DNA from: Escherichia coli O127:H6 str. E2348/69
GTDB lineage: Bacteria; Pseudomonadota; Gammaproteobacteria; Enterobacterales; Enterobacteriaceae
Length of the DNA stretch: 64,000 nt
Reading direction: 5' to 3' (one strand)
Assembly (NCBI RefSeq): GCF_000026545.1
Contig: NC_011601.1
Of this stretch, positions 2,655-57,013 are shown in pieces. Below the pieces are notes generated by a model. It saw nothing but the letters and a program-made list of their open reading frames with translations. It had not been told where the DNA came from and did no database searches. Both the position numbers and the translations under genes were made by a program. How positions within the stretch are numbered: the first letter of the stretch is position 1; each line of letters opens with the position of its first letter.

Positions 2655-3760
2655 CGCGCCAGCTTAAGCGCAGTCTTCGGTACACAACTACAGCAAAGAA
2701 TAGTGCCATCATCGCCTATTGCTGATTTTTTTAGCGGCGTGACTTCGCCTTCTAAAAGCTGAACACGGCAACTTCCACAAATGCCCGCGCGGCAAGAATA
2801 AGGGATACGAATTCCCTGATTTTCTAATTGCTCCAGCAGCACCTGTTGGTTATTTCCACGAAATGCCTGTCCCTGCCAGTCAATATCTACGTTTGCGTCC
2901 GGTTGTTGCGTGATGTTGGCAGTATCATCAGCGGCACCTGCGCCGTAAATTTTAGCCGGAGCCGTTGCCAGAATTTCCACCTCGTCGCCAACGCGAATCA
3001 CGCCGCTATTACGGGCAATTAAATTCTGACCAAAATCGACATCGCCGTTATCCTGGGCAGTACGGAAAGATTGCAGCGTTTTTAATGGTTCGCCTGCCGG
3101 ATGTTTTTGCCCTTTTTCTGGGCTGACGGTGGTGAAAATACAGCGGCTACAAGGCTTAACCACATCAAACACGACATCACCAATGCGAATCACTTTCCAG
3201 CTATCTTCTTCCCAGGCCGATGCACCGGAAACCACCAGATTGGGGCGGAATTGCTCCATTTTTACACTGGCCGGACAACGTTGTTGGAGATCACGTAACG
3301 AGGCCTCGTTAGCAAGAAGGTAAGGATAGCCATCAGCAAATGACAGGGGTACAGTGTTGTGGCGTTTCACGCGCCGGGTCATTTGTGGCCCCACCCAGCG
3401 TAATTGCACTTCGCGGGAGAAAAATCCACTTAGCCATTTGTTGATCGCGTCTGGCGCAATTCGCGCGGTAAAATGTGTGCCCCAAACTTCGGTTGGTGCG
3501 TCTTGTGTGGCGAAATCAGCAAAACGAACATATGCACTACTGCCATCTGGTGCGGTGAGATGCAAGCCATCATGCACGGGTGAAGGAGTAAACCGTACCA
3601 TTAGCGGAAACTGGCGAGCGGTAATAAACGTACCGTCAGGTTCCGTGATCATAAAGATGCGATCGAAGGCCAGACCACTGACATCTGCCAGGGTATGTGT
3701 AAGACCAATGCCGCGCATCGATTTAACAGGATGAATAAAAAGCCGGGTTAATGTCGCCAC
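2651..3760 (-). CDS. ycbX: MOSC-domain 2Fe-2S protein YcbX
   Basis: 369-aa ORF with C-terminal Cys-rich ferredoxin-like tail; K-12 synteny. Confidence 0.85.
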
Positions 3761-3857: not shown

Positions 3858-5966
3858 ATGAATTCTCTGTTTGCCAGTACGGCCCGTGGGCTGGAAGAGC
3901 TGTTAAAAACTGAACTGGAAAACCTGGGGGCCGTTGAATGCCAGGTGGTTCAGGGTGGGGTCCATTTCAAGGGCGACACACGGCTTGTTTACCAGAGCCT
4001 GATGTGGAGCCGCCTGGCCTCGCGTATTATGTTGCCGCTGGGCGAGTGTAAGGTTTACAGCGATTTAGACCTCTATCTCGGTGTTCAGGCGATCAACTGG
4101 ACAGAGATGTTTAATCCTGGCGCGACCTTCGCTGTCCACTTCAGTGGTTTGAATGACACCATACGCAACAGTCAGTACGGTGCGATGAAAGTGAAAGACG
4201 CGATCGTCGATGCTTTCACGCGGAAAAATCTGCCGCGTCCAAATGTTGATCGCGATGCGCCGGATATCCGCGTTAACGTCTGGCTGCATAAAGAAACCGC
4301 CAGTATCGCCCTTGATCTCAGTGGTGATGGTTTACATCTGCGTGGCTATCGCGATCGTGCTGGCATTGCGCCGATCAAAGAAACCCTGGCAGCCGCTATT
4401 GTGATGCGATCCGGCTGGCAGCCAGGAACACCGCTGCTCGATCCAATGTGTGGTTCAGGTACGTTGCTGATTGAAGCGGCTATGTTGGCGACCGACCGCG
4501 CACCGGGCTTGCACCGTGGGCGTTGGGGCTTTAGCGGCTGGACGCAGCATGATGAAGCTATCTGGCAGGAAGTGAAAGCGGAAGCGCAAACTCGTGCCCG
4601 TAAAGGCCTGGCGGAGTATAGCTCCCATTTCTACGGTTCGGACAGTGACGCACGGGTGATTCAACGTGCGCGCACTAACGCCCGTCTTGCGGGGATTGGT
4701 GAACTGATCACCTTTGAGGTGAACGATGTCGCGCAACTGGCCAATCCGCTGCCGAAAGGGCCGTACGGTACAGTGTTGAGCAACCCGCCATACGGTGAAC
4801 GTCTGGACAGCGAACCGGCGCTGATTGCGCTGCATAGTCTGCTGGGCCGAATCATGAAAAACCAGTTCGGTGGCTGGAATCTCTCTTTGTTTAGTGCCTC
4901 GCCGGATCTGCTAAGCTGCCTGCAGCTGCGTGCAGACAAACAGTACAAGGCGAAAAACGGCCCGCTGGACTGCGTACAGAAAAACTACCATGTTGCCGAA
5001 AGCACACCAGACAGCAAACCGGTAATGGCAGCGGAAGACTACGCCAACCGTCTGCGTAAGAACCTCAAAAAATTCGAGAAGTGGGCTCGCCAGGAAGGAA
5101 TTGAATGTTACCGCCTGTATGACGCCGATCTGCCGGAATATAACGTTGCCGTTGACCGTTATGCCGACTGGGTGGTGGTGCAGGAGTATGCGCCGCCAAA
5201 AACTATTGATGCGCACAAAGCGCGTCAGCGTCTGTTCGATATTATCGCTGCAACCATTTCGGTACTGGGGATTGCGCCAAACAAACTGGTGCTGAAAACC
5301 CGTGAACGCCAGAAGGGCAAAAATCAATACCAGAAACTGGGCGAGAAGGGCGAGTTTCTGGAAGTTACCGAATATAACGCTCACTTGTGGGTGAACCTGA
5401 CGGATTACCTCGATACCGGTCTGTTCCTCGATCACCGTATCGCCCGTCGTATGCTCGGTCAGATGAGCAAAGGCAAAGATTTCCTCAACCTGTTCTCTTA
5501 TACCGGCAGCGCCACCGTGCATGCGGGATTAGGCGGTGCACGCAGCACCACCACCGTGGATATGTCGCGTACTTATCTGGAGTGGGCAGAACGCAACCTG
5601 CGTCTGAATGGCCTAACCGGGCGTGCGCATCGCCTGATTCAGGCCGATTGCCTGGCGTGGCTGCGTGAGGCAAATGAACAGTTTGATCTGATCTTTATCG
5701 ATCCGCCAACCTTCTCTAACTCAAAACGAATGGAAGATGCGTTTGATGTTCAGCGCGATCATCTGGCGCTGATGAAAGATTTGAAACGTCTGCTGCGTGC
5801 AGGTGGGACGATCATGTTCTCGAACAACAAACGCGGCTTCCGTATGGATCTCGACGGCCTGGCGAAACTGGGACTGAAAGCACAAGAAATTACGCAAAAA
5901 ACGCTCTCCCAGGATTTCGCCCGTAACCGCCAGATCCACAACTGCTGGCTGATTACCGCAGCCTGA
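3858..5966 (+). CDS. rlmL: bifunctional 23S rRNA methyltransferase RlmKL
   Basis: 702-aa ORF with two methyltransferase modules; synteny. Confidence 0.9.
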
Positions 5967-48689: not shown

Positions 48690-51422
48690 TCAGGTCTTTC
48701 TTATTAACCATGCTTCCAGAGCGGCAACACTGCGTGTAATTTCTTCGTGTGGAAGGGGGGCAGATAATGGCTGCTGCTCCAGTTGTGCGCATTGCTGGCT
48801 GGCGCTACGCATTCCCAGACTCGAGCAACTGCTTTTTAGCTGATGTGCGGCACGCTTTATTTTCTCGTTATCCTGACTGGCGCGGGCAATGTCGATTTCA
48901 TCGAGAAGCGGCAGGGCATGTTGTTTAAATAATATCAGCCATTCGTGGAGCTTCTCCGCCCCCATTAAATGAGCATCTTCATTGAGTTGCGATACATCCA
49001 GTGGTTGATCGTTATTGACTTGCAGTTGGAGATAGTGCGCCAGTAATTGACCGAGCACTTCACGCGGCACCGGTTTAGGGATAATCCCGCGAAATAGCGA
49101 ACTGGTACGCTGTCGCAGTGTTTCGTCAATGACATGGGCGCTAAAGCCAATCAAAACCAGTGACGGATATTGCTGTGCCAGTTGCCGGGCAAGGGTAATG
49201 CCGTCGATATCCGGCAGATCAAAATCCACCAGTGCGGCAGCAAACGGTTCGCTATTTTGCAATGCCTCTATTGCCTGCGCGGCATTTCCTACGGCAACGA
49301 CCTGCGCACCACTGGTGTTCAGCATTTCGACAGTAATTCGCTGGGTGAGCGGGTTATCTTCAATTAACAGCAAACGCAAATCGTCCAGACGTACCGCCTG
49401 ATTGACTGTTTTGGGCACGGGTGCAGTGGCAATACGTAACGGCAAGCGTAAACAAAAACAGCTTCCAACCTCCGGCGTGCTGGTGGCGCTCAGTTCGCCA
49501 CCCATCGCCTGGGCCAGGCGGCTACTGATAGTCAGCCCCAGCCCGGTGCCGCCGCGTTTGCCGCTAACCTGAACAAATGGCTGGAAGATTTTAGCCAGTT
49601 TCGCGGGATCAATACCGCAGCCGCTGTCTTCCACTTCGACCAGCCATTGTTCGCCATCAGTGCGACTACGCAGAATAATGTGCCCTTCGTCGGTGAAACG
49701 CAGGGCGTTGCTCAACAGGTTGGTAATGACCTGACGAATACGCCGCGGATCGCCCATTAACGCAGTCGGTACATCGTCGGCAATTTCTGTTGCCAGGCGA
49801 ATCGGGCGACCTTTCACCCTTCCGCTCATTAATTGCAGGGTACTTTCCAGCAGCGGGCGCGGTTCAAAGGGTTCATCGCTGACCGAAACATTCTTGCCGC
49901 CTGCTTCGATAGCCGAATAATCGAGAATATCGTTGAGGATGGTCAGCAACGATTCACCAGAGTCGGTAATCGCCCGCAAATCATCGCGCTGGGCGTTAAG
50001 TGCGGGGTTATCTGCCAGCAACTGTGCGGTGCCGAGAATACCGTACAGCGGTGTGCGGATCTCATGGCTCATCGCCGCCAGAAACGCTGATTTTGCCTGG
50101 TTGGCTTTTTCTGCTTCCGCCCGTGCCTGTCGGTGTTCTATCACCAGTTCCTGCAATTCAGCTGTACGCGCTTTGACCTGCGCCGCCAACTGTTCACGGT
50201 GGCGATTCAGTGCATGAACACTGCTGCGAAACGCATCCATCAGCCGCCCGATGGTATCCAGCTCCCGTACGCCAGCGGTTTCCGGGAAAGGGGAGTCAAT
50301 ATCACCGTCCAGCAGTCGTTGCAGCGCCTGCGTTTGTTCGGCAAGTGGACGCGTGACTGAGCGATAAACCACGCGCCAGAGGATCAGTATCAGTGCGCAA
50401 AGTGAAACCATCCCCAGCAATAACAGGCTGTATTGCCCGCGTGCACTGGCTTTTTCCAGATGCGCCAGTCCGTGCTGATTACGCAGCTCAATGGTGTCGA
50501 CCAGCTGACTGACTTCGCTACTAAACTGCGCGAATTGGGCGATGTTATTTTGGGCGAGAGTTTGCAGGTGATTGCTGATTTCACTGTCCTGCTGATACAG
50601 CGCCAGCAAATCGCTATATTGGCTAACGGTAGTTAACGTTGTTGCTACCTGAGTACGAACACCCGGATCTTCAATGCGTATTTGCCGACGTTGCAGAATT
50701 TTCACCGCATTATTGAGCTGCTTTTCCAGCGTTGGCGCATTTTTCTGGATCTGTTCCAGCCCCAGATTCATCACCATTTGCTGCACCCGCAGGGCGCTAA
50801 GGCGCAGTTCATTCATCTGGTTAACATACTCAAGATCGATATCAATCAGCCGATCGAGTGCACTTTCTGCGGCCTGACGCTGATGTTGTTCGATCAAATC
50901 GTAAATCCCGGCCTGGGTCGCTCCGGCGGAGGTTGCCGCATTATTCGCCTGACCTTGCGCCAGGCGTGCGATCTCATCGGCGGCGGCGACTATCTGCTGA
51001 CTGAGTTGCTGTTGTTGCTGGCGCAGTTGCAAACGCTGTCCCACCAGTTCCCCTTGCTGACGTAACGAACGGGAGATCTCCTGCTCCTGTTGTTCAATAG
51101 CGGTGGTGTCAAAACCTTGTTCCCGTAACGCTTGCAGCAACGCATTAATCTTCAGGCTTTGTGCGGTGAGCATTCGCCCCTGCGCCTGCCACATCTTTTC
51201 GTTATCGGCACTGGTCAGGTTCTGCGCGGCGAAAAGTTCCCAGGCGCTGGCTTCGCTCAACTGGCGCGCCATATTCATGGTAGGAATCAATGCCTGAGTG
51301 TTGTCTTTTTCCACCTGGCTGATAAAGCGCAGGTTGTACCATCCCACCAGGGTACTGGTCAGGGTTAACAGCGCCATCAGGGCAAAGCCCATCCAGAGTC
51401 TTCGGGTCAGGGTTAAATTCAC
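48690..51422 (-). CDS. torS: TMAO sensor hybrid histidine kinase TorS
   Basis: 910-aa ORF with HAMP, HisKA (SHEIRTP), ATPase, receiver (DFDLPDIDG) and HPt domains; GTG start at 51422. Confidence 0.9.
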
Positions 51423-51516
51423 GGTCGGTGCACTTTGGGTGAATAAGTTGTATATTTAAAATCTCTTTAATTATCAGTAAATTAATGTAAGTAGGTCATT
51501 ATTAGTCAAAATAAAA
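51423..51516. other. attL region (bacterial/phage junction plus P' arm) between torS start and int stop
   Basis: Only 94 bp separate the torS start from the int stop; the junction must lie here, core not resolved by eye. Confidence 0.5.
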
Positions 51517-52590
51517 TCATTTGTCGATTTCAATTTTGTCCCATTCCCGTCCACGGCTGTCCCTATACCGCGCCGCCATTGAATCTGATTTATGCCCGAG
51601 AAGACGTTGAGCAAACTTATCGCCAATCTGGTTCCGGTATAGCCTCGCTGACAGGCTACGCAGTTCATGGAATGTTGGCGGGTTTCCATCAAATGAGAGG
51701 CCAGATGCATTTCTCGCCTTTGTAAAATACTTTGATACTGTTTTCGGGGAAAGCGGATCGTGATGCTTTGATGCGATTATAGTTTCACTGCTGCTGGCCT
51801 CCCTGCATTTCTGTAGTGTATCAGCCAATGAGATATTGAGCGCGTCAATCGTTAGCGTTAGCGGAATGGCGAGTTTAGCCCCTGTTTTACTCTGTTTAAT
51901 GTGAAGATGGTTGTCGTTTATGTCTGACCATTTCATTCTGCACAAATCGCCGACTCTCTGCCCTGTAACGACGGCCAAATCCATCGCCAGCCTTAGCCAG
52001 ATAGGGAGAGGTTCGGCTGCATGGTAAATCTCGACATACTCATTAGCTGTCAGCCTTGAGCGCCTTACTTCTGACTTTGCTGTACGGGTTGCTGTTACCG
52101 GATTCGTTGCCACATGCCCCTCGGCTATTGCTTCACGAAAAACGTCAACAAGGGTTGACCTGATTAATTTTGCGGAAGCTGCTTTACCTTCTGCTACGTA
52201 GGTGTTTAGCATTGCTGCCACTTCTTTCGTTGATATGTCAGTGAGCGGTTTGTCCGGCAATTTTCTTCGGATTGCCCTGATTTTGCTGGCGTAGTCGAGT
52301 AGAGTTTTCGGCCTGATCCCCCTTTCGGTGAGGATTGTTTCATATCGGTCAAGCCACACATGAAGAGTGATTGCGTCACCGCCTTTAATTCTGTCTATCA
52401 GTGATTTGCGTCCGCTGTCTGAGAGTAACTCAATATTGGCCTGTATTGCTTCAGTGATTGCTATCCTCCTGTCTCGGCCTAATCCAAACTCTTTACCCGT
52501 CCTTGGGTCCCTGTAGCAGTAATATCCATTGTTTCTTATATAAAGGTTAGGGGGTAAATCCCGGCGCTCATGACTTCGCCTTCTTCCCAT
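51517..52590 (-). CDS. int: lambda-family tyrosine integrase
   Basis: 357 aa; N-terminus MGRRRSHERRDLPPNLYIRNNGYYCYRDPRTGKEFGLGRDRRIAITEAIQANIEL matches lambda Int arm-binding domain; catalytic region diverges (HK022-like?). Confidence 0.95.
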   Translation of the reverse strand: MGRRRSHERRDLPPNLYIRNNGYYCYRDPRTGKEFGLGRDRRIAITEAIQANIELLSDSGRKSLIDRIKGGDAITLHVWLDRYETILTERGIRPKTLLDYASKIRAIRRKLPDKPLTDISTKEVAAMLNTYVAEGKAASAKLIRSTLVDVFREAIAEGHVATNPVTATRTAKSEVRRSRLTANEYVEIYHAAEPLPIWLRLAMDLAVVTGQRVGDLCRMKWSDINDNHLHIKQSKTGAKLAIPLTLTIDALNISLADTLQKCREASSSETIIASKHHDPLSPKTVSKYFTKARNASGLSFDGNPPTFHELRSLSARLYRNQIGDKFAQRLLGHKSDSMAARYRDSRGREWDKIEIDK

Positions 52591-54234: not shown

Positions 54235-54812
54235 TGGTTGCCTCCTTTGCGAATCTGTTCCGCCCATTCTTCAAGGGATTTCTCCGCATATTCACCGGAC
54301 AGGCCATCAATCGGGTGCAGTTCATTAGCCAACTCTTCTTTCGCTGACAGAATCATGCGTGTAACGTCGAAAACTTCACGCAAAGACTTATTGATAAATC
54401 CGTGGTTGAAAGCAGCAGCAAGACGGCTGGCGGTATAGTTAATCCCCTCGTTGCGTGCTTCTGCACGAATTTCAGCCAGAAAAGCATCGGTAGCTGGGGT
54501 GTCTGATTGCAGAAACTTTGCGCGATAGTCATTCCACCCTCTTGCATACATGGGATTAACTTGCACTCCATCTTTTACGCAATATGCCTGCCCTCCACGG
54601 TTGATAACCTTGATTTCGTCCATAGCGCCAGACTTCAGCCCCGCATTCTCCGCTGCCAGCGCCGCGCACTTGGCCTCAGCTTCAGCAAATTTACGCACCA
54701 TATATTCAGCATTTGTTTCGTTAACCTTTAAATCACATGAGATGCATTTACCTTTCAGAAATCCATCCATCTCAATTAGTGTCATTCGTTTCATTTCTTC
54801 CCACTCCGCCAC
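54231..54812 (-). CDS. hypothetical phage protein (193 aa)
   Basis: Long ORF in lambda b2/ea region, tightly packed with neighbours; no recognisable motif. Confidence 0.5.
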
Positions 54813-54973
54813 ATCGCATTCAGATATTTGTTTTGATTCACTGACGGAGAAGAATTTCTCTTAAGCAATTCCTCTCTCGATGGCATTGGCTTTACGCGTT
54901 GGCGAATAATCATTTCTGCCGGAAGAATGCCGGGATTGTATGCAAGTCCTCTCATGGTAAATTCCTCAGTCAT
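54791..54973 (-). CDS. hypothetical small phage protein (about 60 aa)
   Basis: Internal Met ([15 protein letters not shown]...) of ORF 54791..55105 gives a start just past the upstream stop. Confidence 0.3.
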
Positions 54974-55259
54974 TACTGATAGCGCCATAGCGTGAGCGGT
55001 AATTACGCAGGCGCGGGTCAATTTCAGGGAAGTGTGTATATGCGGCTTTGCGGAATGGTCGTATTGATGTCTGGTAAATTCGCTCTCGTTCTTCTTTCTC
55101 TGCAAGCCATATACAGTGGCGAAATTCCTTTTCCTCTTTCGTTTCCTGCGGTAGCGACATTATCCGGTCGTAGTTTTTCCTGAATTTATCCAGCACCTCC
55201 GATACGGAATTGCCGGAACAGCGGCGCGGGTCATCCGCACCATACTGAGGCGCTGGCAT
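54966..55259 (-). CDS. hypothetical phage protein (97 aa)
   Basis: ORF immediately downstream of ssb. Confidence 0.45.
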
Positions 55260-55272
55260 GATTTTCTCCTGA

Positions 55273-55779
55273 TTAAATTGCGTGAATAGCGTGACGAGGG
55301 AAGGGGAGAGTTACTGGTGCAAAGGGTATATCGTCGTCAAAATCCATCGGAGGTTCGTTGTGTTGTGCTGGTGATGATTGCTGCTGTGGCTTCTGTGATT
55401 GCCTGCTGGCTGCTTGTTGTTTGCTGTCGCCAATGCCGCCAAGCATTTGCATCACGCCATTAATTCCGACATGAACCTCGGTTGTGTAACGGTCTTGCCC
55501 TGACTGGTCTTTCCACTTTCTGGTTCTCAGCATTCCCTCGAAATAAATCTGATCACCTTTTTTCACATACTGCCCCACGACCTCAGCCAGTTTCCCGGAT
55601 ACAGCAACACGATGCCATTCAGTCAATTCCTTTTGCTCGCCAGTATTTTTATCTCGCCATTGTTCTGACGTGGCTATTGTCAGGTTAGCGAACGCTGTTC
55701 CTGATGGTGAGTATCGAACTTCCGGGTCTTGTCCTACCCGACCAAGGATAATCACCTTATTTACGCCTCTGCTTGCCAT
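55273..55779 (-). CDS. ssb: phage single-stranded DNA-binding protein
   Basis: 168 aa starting [23 protein letters not shown] (OB fold), Gln/Pro-rich linker, acidic tail DFDDDIPF. Confidence 0.9.
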
Positions 55780-56487
55780 TTATGCTGCCTGTTTTAGTTC
55801 GTTAACTCTGATGTTCATTACCTGAACACATTTAGCCTGCGCCTCCTCGTTGCCAGCCATTAATTGCCAGTCACGCTGATAACGCTCGATGAGTTTTTTC
55901 TTGTCAGTTTCTGTCGCTGCATAATCGCTGAAGTCTTTCAGGATTTGTTCGCAGTCAACCGATGGAGATTTCTGGTTGGTATTTTCTGGTGATGGTTTGT
56001 TATCTGATGCTGGGATTGCCCATCCCGGCAGTGATGGAGGTAGCCAGTAAAATCCTGTTCCATCCTTCAGTTTTGCCCTGTGCCACCCCTGCTTTTTATC
56101 GAGAGATGTTTGTGCGAAACCTTCCTCAAGGTTATACAGATACCGACCGATTCCCCACTGAACGGCAGCGCGCTTCATTGCACCGGAACGACCGCCTTTG
56201 ACAGCTTCTACCTGCGTGTTTTCAGCAGCATCCCATTTGGTTACCCATTCGGAATCAATCCTGATTGATATGCCGCATTCAACGCCTCCGTTGTTGGGAA
56301 TATCGCGGTATTCATTGCGCCATCCTGCTTTGCCGCAAACATCGTCCAGACGTTTCATGATTGCCCGGTTCGTGACATAAGCCAGCACCATAGCCCACAC
56401 CTTGCCATCGCGTGTTTTACCGCTTTGCTGTATTCGCCATTCGATATCTTCAGGGCTGAATGGCTCATCGAATTTGTTCAAATCCAT
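55780..56487 (-). CDS. single-strand annealing recombinase, Rad52-like N-domain with Erf-like C-terminus
   Basis: 235 aa; N-terminal half has Rad52/Sak-type motifs (GISIRID, AMKRAAVQWGIGRYLY); C-terminal 50 aa (EQILKDFSDYAATETDKKKLIERYQRDWQ...) resembles P22 Erf C-terminus as recalled; adjacent to ssb. Confidence 0.7.
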   Translation of the reverse strand: MDLNKFDEPFSPEDIEWRIQQSGKTRDGKVWAMVLAYVTNRAIMKRLDDVCGKAGWRNEYRDIPNNGGVECGISIRIDSEWVTKWDAAENTQVEAVKGGRSGAMKRAAVQWGIGRYLYNLEEGFAQTSLDKKQGWHRAKLKDGTGFYWLPPSLPGWAIPASDNKPSPENTNQKSPSVDCEQILKDFSDYAATETDKKKLIERYQRDWQLMAGNEEAQAKCVQVMNIRVNELKQAA

Positions 56488-56586
56488 AATTCACCTCAGA
56501 ATGGACACGGCCCAAGGAAATAACGCTGATTTAATACTTCGACTCGGGACAAATTAAGGCATACCCGCATTCCTTCGCGGTCGCCA

Positions 56587-56745
56587 TTATGGCGATACCA
56601 GAGAGCTTTCTGCGTGTACATGCGTCTCTGTAACTTGCTCTCCTTCACTGTGGTTGCAAGTGACATGAATATCTCCTTCGTTACCGATTAATTCTTTCAT
56701 CTGACGAATGAATTCTTCGTCTGAGCAGTTATCTGTAAAACTCAT
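56587..56745 (-). CDS. small acidic hypothetical protein (52 aa), coupled to kil
   Basis: Hand-translated ORF MSFTDNCSDEEFIRQMKELIGNEGDIHVTCNHSEGEQVTETHVHAESSLVSP; its ATG overlaps the kil-like stop (ATGA). Confidence 0.3.
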   Translation of the reverse strand: MSFTDNCSDEEFIRQMKELIGNEGDIHVTCNHSEGEQVTETHVHAESSLVSP

Positions 56746-56894
56746 TTCCTGCGATACCACGGAAGGTTGATAGCTGATTTCATCGCTTTATTTGCTTCAA
56801 GCCACATTTTGGAATCACCAATAAATCTGGCTATTACTGCTTTGTTCTGTGCAGCACGAAGCATCTGGTGATTGATGGCTATTTCATTGCGCAT
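56742..56894 (-). CDS. kil: Kil-like host-killing small protein
   Basis: Hand-translated 50 aa MRNEIAINHQMLRAAQNKAVIARFIGDSKMWLEANKAMKSAINLPWYRRK; FIGD-x-KM motif and position next to cIII as in lambda. Confidence 0.45.
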   Translation of the reverse strand: MRNEIAINHQMLRAAQNKAVIARFIGDSKMWLEANKAMKSAINLPWYRRK

Positions 56895-57013
56895 AACGCC
56901 TCCAGTTGTTTCTTTGCTGCTCTGATTAATTGTTTAACTCGGCGTGATAATTCAGATTCGTGCGGGTAGAAAGCGGACATGACGCCGCTACCCGCGAGCT
57001 GAAAGTGCATCAT
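56879..57013 (-). CDS. cIII: cIII-like FtsH inhibitor
   Basis: 44 aa MMHFQLAGSGVMSAFYPHESELSRRVKQLIRAAKKQLEALCAMK after RBS aaggag; pattern resembles lambda CIII (AG...V...P.ES.L..R). Confidence 0.5.
   Translation of the reverse strand: MMHFQLAGSGVMSAFYPHESELSRRVKQLIRAAKKQLEALCAMK

What the first reader, a model, noticed from the sequence alone, without database searches (positions are those of the whole stretch)
55273..56487. Recombination module is a Rad52-like/Erf-tail chimera plus SSB instead of lambda exo-bet-gam
Where lambda has exo, bet and gam, this prophage has a 235-aa annealing protein whose N-terminal two thirds carry Rad52/Sak-type motifs while the last 50 residues resemble the P22 Erf C-terminus as I recall it. 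It is immediately followed (stop/start adjacent) by a phage SSB with the acidic tail. No exonuclease or Gam-like gene is evident nearby, so a partner nuclease or RecBCD inhibitor may be among the small unassigned ORFs.
Basis: partly seen in the sequence, partly recalled or inferred. Interest (0 to 1): 0.4.

Follow-up and report, generated by a model that had tools for sequence, protein, structure and literature searches.

The report
Ordinary P22-type phage recombination module
This is the already-described "HK75-type" recombination gene set of lambda-like prophages: a Rad52-fold DNA-annealing protein with a P22-Erf-type tail domain, a phage SSB and the RecBCD hijacker Abc2. It is ordinary except that the SSB buries its usual docking tip under a conserved 15-residue cap that I could not find described.

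Summary
The two ORFs exist as described. The 235-aa protein has a Rad52/Mgm101-type core (Pfam PF04098, E 7e-26; Foldseek to Mgm101/RAD52), a disordered linker and a three-helix C-terminal domain. Only that domain matches P22 Erf (65% over 79 aa, E 6e-31). The ssb gene starts directly after its stop codon (TAAATG).

The "missing partner" is not missing. The next gene (54966..55259) is Abc2, 92% identical to P22 Abc2. The gene order kil–small ORFs–annealing protein–middle gene–abc2 matches P22 kil–arf–erf–abc1–abc2.

The same module, 96-97% identical, is in phages mEp235, mEpX2 and HK75, and diverged or interrupted versions in Sf6, epsilon34 and ES18. At least 80% of it is in 362 of 5,426 complete E. 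coli genomes. The window is 100% identical to EPEC E2348/69. The Erf "domain swap" was published by 2008, and the "HK75-type" module (anti-RecBCD + SSB + annealing protein, no nuclease) in 2025. Verdict: real, ordinary, already known.

One side result: the SSB's DDDIPF tip is not terminal. A 15-residue cap ([15 protein letters not shown]) follows it. The cap is present in about 112 of the 120 closest SSB clusters and recurs on unrelated phage SSB-like proteins and on a primase-helicase. I found no description of it.

The parts
56879..57013 (-). cIII
   Evidence: Pfam cIII E 5.4e-30; the RefSeq CDS maps to these coordinates.
56742..56894 (-). kil, the upstream boundary of the recombination module as in P22 and lambda
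   Evidence: Pfam Lambda_Kil E 1.7e-20; phrog_2055.
56587..56745 (-). 52-aa acidic ORF (Sf6 gene 30 / HK022 gp42-like) at the position of P22 arf; function unknown
   Evidence: phrog_2123 E 2.7e-40. No Pfam Phage_Arf hit. Shares only SDEEFI with P22 Arf. Not annotated by RefSeq.
56496..56666 (-). 56-aa basic ORF (Sf6 gene 29-like) that overlaps the previous ORF by 80 bases in another frame and ends ...GPCPF; function unknown
   Evidence: phrog_1723 E 9.4e-36. Weakly alignable (local score 83, no E-value computed) to epsilon34 gp37 / ES18 gp50, which end ...SELPF.
56017..56487 (-). Annealing protein, residues 1-157: Rad52/Mgm101-type ssDNA-annealing core
   Evidence: PF04098 E 7.2e-26. AF2 model pLDDT mostly 83-95 in this region, with dips at residues 61-70 and 81-100 including a below-50 loop at 89-97. 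Foldseek matches Mgm101 9yi9 (E 4.6e-4) and human RAD52 8rjw/8bjm/1h2i (prob 0.96-1.0).
55960..56016 (-). Annealing protein, residues 158-176: variable, disordered linker that is also the mosaic junction
   Evidence: pLDDT below 50 at residues 162-175. Length and sequence vary among homologues. DNA similarity to an E. coli relative stops at 55988, and similarity to P22 starts at 55950.
55783..55959 (-). Annealing protein, residues 177-235: Erf-type C-terminal three-helix domain, presumed to dock a partner protein
   Evidence: 65% identity to P22 Erf 134-205, E 6e-31. Helices at 179-192, 196-209 and 214-234. The same domain family sits on ERF-core proteins of P22, HK022, GZ7, EhrS_49 and S9-5.
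55441..55779 (-). SSB OB-fold domain (residues 1-113); the start codon abuts the annealing protein's stop codon
   Evidence: Pfam SSB E 1.6e-36. 100% identical to the mEp235 and HK75 SSBs. TAAATG junction.
55321..55347 (-). SSB acidic tip MDFDDDIPF (residues 145-153), identical to the E. coli SSB-Ct but internal
55276..55320 (-). 15-residue cap [15 protein letters not shown] (residues 154-168) that follows the tip
   Evidence: Present in about 112 of the 120 closest SSB clusters, always 15 aa, in 28 sequence variants. Recurs in unrelated phages.
54966..55259 (-). abc2, the anti-RecBCD protein 2
   Evidence: PF11043 E 2.1e-62. 92% identical to P22 Abc2. PDB 8b1t E 8.4e-57.
54791..54955 (-). DUF2737 small ORF (P22 ORF56-like); it travels with abc2
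   Evidence: RefSeq annotation. DNA similarity to P22 and HK022 continues through it.

Best explanation
This is the HK75-type variant of the P22-style recombination (Rec) module of a lambdoid prophage integrated next to torS in EPEC E2348/69. It is transcribed leftward in the early-left operon, in the order cIII, kil, two small ORFs, annealing protein, SSB, Abc2.

Proposed mechanism. Abc2 binds host RecBCD through RecC and reprogrammes it instead of destroying it, so the host enzyme supplies the resection that lambda gets from Exo (established for P22 Abc2; inferred here from 92% identity). The phage SSB coats the ssDNA. The Rad52-fold protein oligomerises through its N-terminal core and anneals complementary strands (inferred from fold and family). 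Its C-terminal three-helix domain, on a flexible linker, acts as a docking module that brings the core to SSB-coated DNA or to another partner. This last step is inferred by analogy with the Redbeta C-terminal domain and from the fact that the domain is exchanged independently of the core.

The protein is a domain mosaic relative to P22 Erf, but that mosaic is the standard, widespread and already published architecture.
For: Identity of the parts.

Synteny with P22 kil-arf-erf-abc1-abc2.

The same module at 96-97% nucleotide identity in phages mEp235, mEpX2 and HK75, at 91% in ECP1, and in diverged or interrupted form in Sf6, epsilon34 and ES18.

Prevalence: at least 80% of abc2-ssb-annealing protein is in 362 of 5,426 complete E. 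coli genomes. RefSeq already names the genes 'Rad52/Rad22 family DNA repair protein', 'ssb' and 'phage anti-RecBCD protein'.

Literature: PMC12315714 defines the HK75 Rec-module type (anti-RecBCD+, SSB+, nuclease-, SAP+; 27 of 325 lambdoid phages). PMC2629481 states that epsilon34 gene 36 is 'Erf' only through its C-terminal 56 aa and that such Erf domain swaps had been discussed before. The phage L preprint says the same.

Fold: AF2 model with mean pLDDT 81.5. Core matches Mgm101/RAD52. Linker is disordered. C-terminal domain is a three-helix bundle.

Modularity: the C-terminal domain family occurs on both PF04098 and PF04404 cores. In an E. coli relative the segment 'C-terminal domain + SSB' is replaced as one cassette by a different C-terminal domain variant plus a small protein ending ...DDSIPF, between breakpoints in the linker (55988) and at the abc2 ribosome-binding site (55262).

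Analogy: the Redbeta C-terminal domain is a three-helix bundle that binds lambda Exo and the SSB C-terminal peptide (PMC6393309). RecT-SSB compatibility depends on the last 7 SSB residues.
Against: No activity was tested here. Annealing, ring formation, RecC binding and the partner of the C-terminal domain are all inferred.

The Erf-type C-terminal domain shows no detectable homology to the Redbeta C-terminal domain (hhalign probability 0.9%), and Foldseek finds nothing significant for it (best E 1.6). The docking role is therefore analogy only.

The same C-terminal domain type works in P22 with Abc1 and no phage SSB, and in EhrS_49 with no other Rec gene. Its partner therefore cannot be strictly the phage SSB.

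The SSB tip is capped, which by the canonical SSB-Ct binding mode (PMC10164576) should block ordinary tip docking.
Confidence: 0.88

Rival explanations
1. One reading: a novel Rad52/Erf chimera that lacks both nuclease and RecBCD inhibitor, whose unknown partner hides among small unassigned ORFs.
For: The junction with respect to P22 Erf is real. No phage exonuclease is present in this prophage. Two small ORFs upstream have no known function.
Against: Abc2 lies 13 bases downstream of ssb. The architecture is full-length collinear with a large, named family. The module and the domain swap are published.
Confidence: 0.04
2. The SSB cap has a function. By hiding the Phe alpha-carboxylate and presenting a new C-terminus (...RHAIHAI), the phage SSB is insulated from the host's SSB-interacting proteins, or is given a private partner such as the annealing protein's C-terminal domain, Abc2-RecBCD or a replisome component. 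The module would then work with its own SSB rather than through the host SSB hub.
For: The cap is present in about 112 of the 120 closest 90%-identity SSB clusters, always 15 aa, in 28 sequence variants. A profile search of 1.84 billion representatives finds 48 proteins at E<=1e-3. Of 47 sequences compared (the retrieved hits plus seven phage proteins), 45 have 14-16 residues after the IPF, on OB-fold SSBs, on four other phage families and on a primase-helicase. Capped SSBs sampled in E. coli, Klebsiella and Salmonella all lie stop/start-adjacent to a PF04098 annealing protein. Canonical SSB-Ct pockets anchor the terminal carboxylate. SSAP-SSB specificity lies in the last 7 residues.
Against: Sf6 and ES18 carry the same annealing protein with uncapped SSBs and are viable phages. 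P22 uses the same C-terminal domain type with no phage SSB. No binding data exist. The cap occurs in phages without this annealing protein, so any partner is probably more general.
Confidence: 0.35
3. The cap is a neutral by-product of homing-endonuclease traffic at the 3' end of ssb, in which deletion or insertion of an HNH gene fuses or splits 45 bases of coding sequence. It would have no role of its own.
For: In Sf6 an HNH endonuclease gene sits exactly between the Phe codon and the cap codons, and its own last 14 residues are [14 protein letters not shown], encoded by the same 45 bases. ES18 similarity to the window ends exactly at the Phe codon (55321). HNH or homing endonuclease genes abut capped genes in DrSchubert and KE23.
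Against: The length is fixed, the substitutions are conservative, and the cap is present across unrelated phage lineages with diverged DNA. These features indicate selection on the peptide.
Confidence: 0.15
4. The module is an inactive relic in a decaying prophage.
For: RefSeq marks a frameshifted small ORF upstream of the N gene in this prophage. The right end of the prophage lies outside the window.
Against: All module ORFs are intact. The SSB is 100% identical and the whole module 96-97% identical to plaque-forming phages mEp235 and HK75.
Confidence: 0.08

Closest known systems
Rec modules of phages HK75, mEp235, mEpX2, ECP1, Sf6 (genes 28-25), epsilon34 (genes 36-33) and ES18 (gp49-46): the 'HK75' and 'ES18' types of PMC12315714
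   Same: Same genes in the same order. 96-97% nucleotide identity to HK75, mEp235 and mEpX2, and 91% to ECP1. SSB 100% identical to HK75 and mEp235, including the cap.
   Different: mEp235, mEpX2 and epsilon34 have an extra Rv2179c/DnaQ-like 3'-5' exonuclease gene between ssb and abc2. Sf6 and ES18 have an HNH endonuclease there and uncapped SSBs. The window, like HK75 and ECP1, has nothing there.
Phage P22 kil-arf-erf-abc1-abc2
   Same: Same operon position and order. Abc2 is 92% identical. The C-terminal 79 aa of the annealing protein are 65% identical to Erf. DNA similarity is limited to the C-terminal domain (55950..55780) and abc2.
   Different: The core is Rad52_Rad22 (PF04098), not ERF (PF04404). 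The middle gene is ssb, not abc1. The arf-position ORFs are not Arf by Pfam.
Lambda Red (exo, bet, gam)
   Same: Same genomic slot and same overall job: single-strand-annealing recombination plus neutralisation of RecBCD. The annealing protein has two domains, with a three-helix C-terminal domain in both.
   Different: No Exo, no Bet/RecT-family protein and no Gam. RecBCD is hijacked by Abc2 rather than blocked. No sequence or profile similarity between the C-terminal domains.
Phage HK620 Sak4-SSB-Abc2 module (PMC5928155)
   Same: Annealing protein, then SSB, then Abc2. In HK620 the SSB's last six residues are needed to stimulate the annealing protein. This is the closest tested precedent for a cognate SSAP-SSB pair in this slot.
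   Different: HK620 uses a RecA-fold Sak4 and a DUF669 SSB that ends in a free ...NDYPPF. Here the pair is a Rad52-fold protein and an OB-fold SSB with a capped tip.
Eukaryotic/mitochondrial Rad52 and Mgm101; lactococcal phage ul36 Sak
   Same: Same Pfam family and same predicted core fold.
   Different: 12-17% sequence identity in the structural alignments. The C-terminal domain is unrelated to the Rad52 C-terminal region.

Membership tests
Rad52/Rad22 SSAP family (Pfam PF04098) | Sequence match to the family profile above the curated threshold | tested here: met
   91.4 bits against a cutoff of 20.3, E 7.2e-26, residues 4-136 on profile positions 7-153/153.
Rad52/Rad22 SSAP family (Pfam PF04098) | Rad52-type core fold | tested here: met
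   AF2 model (mean pLDDT 81.5). Foldseek matches Mgm101 9yi9_P (E 4.6e-4, prob 1.00) and human RAD52 8rjw, 8bjm and 1h2i. This rests on a predicted structure, not a solved one.
Rad52/Rad22 SSAP family (Pfam PF04098) | Ring or filament oligomer that binds ssDNA and anneals complementary strands | not testable with these tools
   Requires biochemistry or EM.
ERF family (Pfam PF04404; P22 Erf) | ERF-type N-terminal annealing core | tested here: not met
   No ERF hit at E<=0.1. BLASTP finds no N-terminal similarity to P22 Erf. P22 Erf itself scores 157 bits on ERF.
ERF family (Pfam PF04404; P22 Erf) | P22-Erf-type C-terminal domain | tested here: met
   51/79 identical, E 6e-31. tblastn of the C-terminal domain hits P22 erf at 73%, E 5e-24.
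HK75-type lambdoid Rec module (PMC12315714) | Anti-RecBCD gene + SSB gene + strand-annealing gene, contiguous, with no nuclease gene | tested here: met
   Abc2, SSB and the annealing protein are contiguous: zero spacing between the annealing protein and ssb, and 13 bases between ssb and abc2. 96.9% identity to HK75 over 97% of the query.
Lambda Red system | Exo (YqaJ-type 5'-3' exonuclease), Bet (RecT/Redbeta family) and Gam | tested here: not met
   None of the ORFs scanned between cI and int matches these families.
P22 Abc2 anti-RecBCD (PF11043) | Full-length match to the family and to the P22 protein | tested here: met
   207.8 bits, residues 1-97 on 1-97/97. 89/97 identical to P22 Abc2. 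PDB 8b1t E 8.4e-57.
P22 Abc2 anti-RecBCD (PF11043) | Binds RecC and alters RecBCD activity | not testable with these tools
   Inferred from 92% identity to the protein solved in complex with RecBCD.
Bacterial-type SSB (PF00436) with SSB-Ct hub function | OB-fold ssDNA-binding domain | tested here: met
   125 bits, E 1.6e-36. TIGR00621 at 166.9 bits against a cutoff of 53.95.
Bacterial-type SSB (PF00436) with SSB-Ct hub function | Acidic tip ...DDDIPF at the extreme C-terminus, with the Phe alpha-carboxylate free for the partner's 'basic lip' (PMC10164576) | tested here: not met
   The motif is present at residues 148-153 but is followed by 15 residues. The profile matches of TIGR00621, phrog_2544 and phrog_4477 all end at residue 153.
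P22 Arf (PF17585) | Match of an arf-position ORF to the Arf profile | tested here: not met
   No hit for 56496..56666 or 56587..56760. Pairwise comparison finds only SDEEFI (6 aa, E 0.014) for the second, and nothing for the first.

The most novel reading that the evidence does not exclude
The 15-residue cap after the SSB tip (consensus DDDIPF-AP[VI][GT]L[QP][YF]xxx[AFL][IL][HY]x[IL]-COOH) is a distinct, so far undescribed docking peptide of phage replication and recombination proteins. It would convert the universal host-type SSB tip into a private interface. In this module that would make the SSB a dedicated partner of the Rad52-type annealing protein (or of Abc2-RecBCD) and keep host SSB-binding nucleases and helicases off phage recombination intermediates. 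The exact insertion of a homing endonuclease gene at the Phe|Ala junction in Sf6 would then be a natural 'uncapping' event.
Probability: 0.35. Interest if true: 0.55.

Novelty: already known. Interest (0 to 1): 0.2.

Why it matters
The finding as given matters little. It re-identifies a common prophage recombination module whose composition, domain mosaicism and prevalence are already published and already annotated in RefSeq. It is useful as a clean example of exchange at domain boundaries: the breakpoints fall in the interdomain linker, at the Phe codon of the SSB tip and at the abc2 ribosome-binding site.

The capped SSB tail could matter more. SSAP-SSB compatibility governs the portability of recombineering systems and is reported to be set by the last seven SSB residues. 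A widespread phage variant that replaces those residues while keeping the host-type tip internally would be a ready-made test case for how phages separate their recombination machinery from the host SSB interaction network.

Tried and rejected
1. Sequence search of the annealing protein against PDB gave nothing significant. The best hit was a WW-domain-like match of residues 129-164 to PRP40 at E 0.09-0.14. I treat it as chance, although W148, P151, L153, P154 and W156 are invariant in the family.

2. Foldseek of the C-terminal domain alone against PDB found only generic three-helix bundles (best E 1.6). The Redbeta C-terminal domain was not recovered.

3. hhalign of the C-terminal domain profile against the lambda Bet C-terminal domain gave probability 0.9%, so there is no detectable homology.

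4. A profile search with the C-terminal domain in the 5.8-billion-protein collection returned only 20 fragments and no architecture information. I used tblastn on phages plus Pfam scans instead.

5. I tested whether either small upstream ORF is Arf, Abc2 or Gam. It is not, by Pfam, PHROG, NCBIfam or BLASTP.

6. A literature search for the cap as text strings ([28 protein letters not shown]) and by keywords found nothing relevant. The supplements of PMC12315714 are not held.

7. I asked whether the cap carriers include N4 SSB. A 268-aa carrier (P0137) matches jumbo-phage proteins, not N4.

8. I considered a ClpX C-terminal degron or a beta-clamp-binding motif as explanations for the cap. These are resemblances from memory only, not tested and not claimed.
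Full report
WHAT IS THERE. On the minus strand, ORF 55780..56487 encodes 235 aa and ORF 55273..55779 encodes 168 aa. The first ends GCA TAA and the second begins ATG on the very next base.

The surrounding genes are a lambdoid early-left operon. In order they are a LexA-family cI-like repressor (59771..60592), a Bro-N protein, an N-peptide gene, DUF2528, cIII (56879..57013) and kil (56742..56894). Next come two small overlapping ORFs, the two genes of the finding, and a 97-aa ORF (54966..55259). The operon continues with DUF2737, an unknown 193-aa ORF, Ead/Ea22, ea8.5, excisionase and a lambda/HK022-type integrase that abuts torS. The window is 100% identical over this stretch to E. coli E2348/69.

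THE ANNEALING PROTEIN. Residues 4-136 match Pfam Rad52_Rad22 (E 7.2e-26, 91.4 bits, cutoff 20.3), and there is no ERF match.

An AlphaFold2 model built on 43 homologues (mean pLDDT 81.5) has four parts:
- a beta/alpha core;
- short beta strands at residues 126-149;
- a segment with pLDDT below 50 at residues 162-175;
- a three-helix bundle (helices 179-192, 196-209, 214-234).

Foldseek against the PDB returns yeast Mgm101 (9yi9_P, E 4.6e-4, prob 1.00) and human RAD52 entries (8rjw, 8bjm, 5jrb, 1h2i, 1kn0) as the only significant hits.

BLASTP against P22 Erf aligns only residues 157-235 with Erf 134-205 (51/79 identical, E 6e-31). The N-terminal parts are unrelated, and P22 Erf's own core is Pfam ERF.

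THE JUNCTION IS REAL BUT OLD AND COMMON. PHROG 1097 ('Erf-like ssDNA annealing protein') matches the protein end to end (E 1.1e-129). A search of the 5.8-billion-protein collection gives 5,596 homologues. Most of the 120 best-scoring clusters listed cover the whole length, at identities down to 57%, in Salmonella, Cronobacter, Citrobacter, Klebsiella, Hafnia, Pantoea, Erwinia and others.

In the alignment the core is highly conserved, the linker varies in length and sequence, and the C-terminal domain is more variable, with a conserved L183, F186, W207 and R227 pattern. Homologues of the C-terminal domain also sit on ERF-type cores in P22, HK022, Klebsiella phage GZ7, Erwinia phage EhrS_49 and Salmonella phage S9-5. 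One C-terminal domain family therefore serves two annealing-core families.

BLASTN maps the breakpoints:
- Similarity to P22 is confined to 55950..55780 (the C-terminal domain) and 55269..54813 (abc2 and DUF2737).
- Similarity to an E. coli relative (GCA_012349825) runs through the small ORFs and the core, stops at 55988 in the linker, and resumes at 55262, the abc2 ribosome-binding site.
- In that relative the segment 'C-terminal domain + SSB' is replaced as one cassette by a different C-terminal domain variant plus a 127-aa protein ending ...YDDSIPF.

THE MISSED PARTNER. The ORF that starts 13 bases after the ssb stop codon is Abc2. It matches Pfam Anti-RecBCD_p2 at E 2.1e-62 over its full length, is identical to P22 Abc2 at 89 of 97 positions, and matches PDB entries 8b1t/8b1u, 'Anti-RecBCD protein 2', at E 8.4e-57.

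The gene order kil / small ORF(s) / annealing protein / middle gene / abc2 is that of P22 kil-arf-erf-abc1-abc2. In the P22 paradigm no phage exonuclease is needed, because Abc2 reprogrammes host RecBCD (summarised in PMC5928155 and PMC12315714). So 'no Gam-like gene nearby' is wrong, while 'no exonuclease' is right and expected.

Sister phages do carry an extra gene exactly between ssb and abc2. In mEp235, mEpX2 and epsilon34 it is an Rv2179c/DnaQ-like 3'-5' exonuclease. In Sf6 and ES18 it is an HNH endonuclease. The window, HK75 and ECP1 have none.

ALREADY KNOWN. The 2,051-base stretch is 96.5% identical to mEp235, 96.3% to mEpX2, 96.9% to HK75 and 91% to ECP1, with 245 phage records matching in all. 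At least 80% of abc2-ssb-annealing protein is present in 362 of 5,426 complete E. coli genomes. RefSeq names the three products 'Rad52/Rad22 family DNA repair protein', 'single-stranded DNA-binding protein' and 'phage anti-RecBCD protein'.

Three papers cover it:
- PMC12315714 (Genome Res 2025) classifies the Rec modules of 325 lambdoid phages. It lists an 'HK75' type (anti-RecBCD+, SSB+, nuclease-, SAP+; 27 phages) and an 'ES18' type with an added nuclease (25 phages). It also notes that shuffling of partner-interaction domains probably explains the promiscuous combinations.
- The phage L preprint makes the same point.

HOW IT MOST LIKELY WORKS.
- Shown by homology: the parts are a Rad52-fold annealing protein, an OB-fold SSB and Abc2.
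- Inferred from the P22 system: Abc2 binds RecC and turns RecBCD into the resection engine, SSB coats the 3' ssDNA, and the annealing-protein oligomer anneals it to a complementary strand at a replication fork or another resected end.
- Inferred by analogy only: the C-terminal domain is a docking module. The Redbeta C-terminal domain is also a three-helix bundle and binds lambda Exo and the SSB C-terminal peptide (PMC6393309). RecT-SSB compatibility depends on the last seven SSB residues. In HK620 the last six SSB residues are needed to stimulate Sak4.

I could not detect homology between the Erf-type and Redbeta C-terminal domains (hhalign probability 0.9%; Foldseek best E 1.6). The same C-terminal domain type occurs in P22 with no phage SSB and in EhrS_49 with no other Rec gene. 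A host partner, with host SSB the obvious candidate, is therefore more likely than an exclusively phage one.

THE SSB IS NOT QUITE CANONICAL. It is 100% identical to the mEp235 and HK75 SSBs and carries the E. coli tip MDFDDDIPF, but 15 residues ([15 protein letters not shown]) follow before the stop codon. Canonical SSB-Ct pockets bury the terminal Phe and anchor its alpha-carboxylate on a basic lip (PMC10164576). A capped tip should therefore not bind in the usual way.

The cap is not an accident of this strain:
- Of the 120 best 90%-identity clusters homologous to this SSB, about 112 are capped. Of these, 109 have exactly 15 residues, in 28 sequence variants, and 7 clusters are uncapped.
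- A tblastn search with the 27-residue tail finds 146 phage records that cover at least 80% of it.
- These include a true SSB of Vibrio phage 1.243.O (...[21 protein letters not shown]).
- They also include non-OB proteins of Vequintavirinae phages of Acinetobacter, Klebsiella and Salmonella.
- A 424-aa protein of phage DrSchubert and the DNA primase/helicase of Seunavirus KE23 (...DDDTPFAPIGLQYANHAIYVL) carry it too.
- A profile of six tails searched against 1.84 billion representatives gives 48 hits at E<=1e-3. Of 47 sequences compared (the retrieved hits plus seven phage proteins), 45 have 14-16 residues after the IPF.
- The carriers belong to PHROGs 44 and 9002 (SSBs) and to 2544, 4477, 32668 and 3284 (unknown function).

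In Sf6 an HNH endonuclease gene lies exactly between the Phe codon and the cap codons. The SSB then ends ...DSDIPF*, and the endonuclease itself ends ...[14 protein letters not shown], encoded by the same 45 bases. ES18 similarity to the window stops exactly at the Phe codon.

Capped SSBs sampled from E. coli, Klebsiella and Salmonella prophages all lie stop/start-adjacent to a PF04098 annealing protein. I found no description of the cap. The only trace is the Sf6 GenBank note that gene 26 'contains 14 contiguous amino acids identical to ... E. coli SSB'. What the cap does is unknown. I rate a specific docking or insulating function at about 0.35 and a neutral by-product of endonuclease traffic at about 0.15.

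THE SMALL UPSTREAM ORFs. ORF 56587..56745 (52 aa from its ATG; Sf6 gene 30 / HK022 gp42-like; phrog_2123) is acidic and shares only SDEEFI with P22 Arf. ORF 56496..56666 (56 aa; Sf6 gene 29-like; phrog_1723) overlaps it by 80 bases in another frame. It aligns weakly with epsilon34 gp37 / ES18 gp50 (local score 83, no E-value computed), and both end in Pro-Phe. Neither is Abc2-, Gam- or Arf-like by profile. RefSeq annotates neither.

VERDICT. It describes the standard, published architecture of a very common prophage module, and the supposedly missing RecBCD modulator is the adjacent Abc2. Novelty: already known. Interest 0.2. The only open item is the capped SSB tail.

Noticed in passing
window 55276..55320 (-), SSB residues 154-168: The SSB's DDDIPF tip is followed by a conserved 15-residue cap, [15 protein letters not shown]. 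About 112 of the 120 closest SSB clusters have it, always 15 aa. A similar cap (AP[VI]GL[QP][YF]....[IL][HY]x[IL]) ends unrelated phage SSB-like proteins and a primase-helicase. I found no description of it in the literature.
   Followed up: partly
window 55320/55321 junction; L006 (Sf6) 3091-3580; L005 (ES18) 2693: In Sf6 an HNH endonuclease gene is inserted exactly between the Phe codon and the cap codons of ssb, and the endonuclease ORF reads through the 45 cap-coding bases. ES18 similarity to the window ends exactly at the Phe codon. This suggests homing-endonuclease traffic at this junction.
   Followed up: partly
window 55262..55988 against L014 (E. coli GCA_012349825) 4000-4582: The annealing protein's C-terminal domain and the following SSB are exchanged together as one cassette. 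The replacement is a different C-terminal domain variant plus a 127-aa protein ending ...YDDSIPF. The breakpoints lie in the interdomain linker and at the abc2 ribosome-binding site.
   Followed up: partly
between window 55259 and 55273; L001 4187-4735, L004 2741-3289, L025 3525-4073: Sister phages (mEp235, mEpX2, epsilon34) and a Klebsiella prophage carry an Rv2179c/DnaQ-like 3'-5' exonuclease gene (PF16473, E 1.3e-73) in the 13-base gap that the window has between ssb and abc2. The Klebsiella version lacks Abc2.
   Followed up: partly
window 56496..56666 and 56587..56760 (-): Two conserved small ORFs overlap by 80 bases in different frames in the 255-base kil-to-annealing-protein gap that RefSeq leaves unannotated. 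PHROGs label both 'recombinase' without evident basis. The 56-aa one and its Salmonella-phage counterparts end in Pro-Phe, like an SSB tip.
   Followed up: partly
window 55996..56103 (-), annealing-protein residues 129-164: A WW-domain-like stretch (GWHRAKLKDGTGFYWLPPSLPGWAIP) gives a weak hit to yeast PRP40 WW domains (E 0.09-0.14). W148, P151, L153, P154 and W156 are invariant across 43 homologues. It is probably part of the Rad52-type core's oligomerisation hairpin and not a true WW domain.
   Followed up: no
P0122 (120 aa, from the representative library): A protein with an unidentified N-terminal part (not scanned) fused directly to the SSB linker, tip and cap (…[38 protein letters not shown]). 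It looks like a deletion product in some prophage that joins a downstream gene to the ssb 3' end.
   Followed up: no
window 48690..52590: The prophage integrase (HK022/lambda type, 51517..52590) abuts torS (48690..51422). This is the HK022-type attachment site noted in the mEp235 record. The RefSeq record for E2348/69 marks torS as frameshifted, whereas the window shows one 910-aa ORF.
   Followed up: no
window about 58387..58609 (-): RefSeq marks a frameshifted hypothetical ORF just upstream of the N-peptide gene of this prophage. It is the only sign of decay seen in the early-left operon.
   Followed up: no
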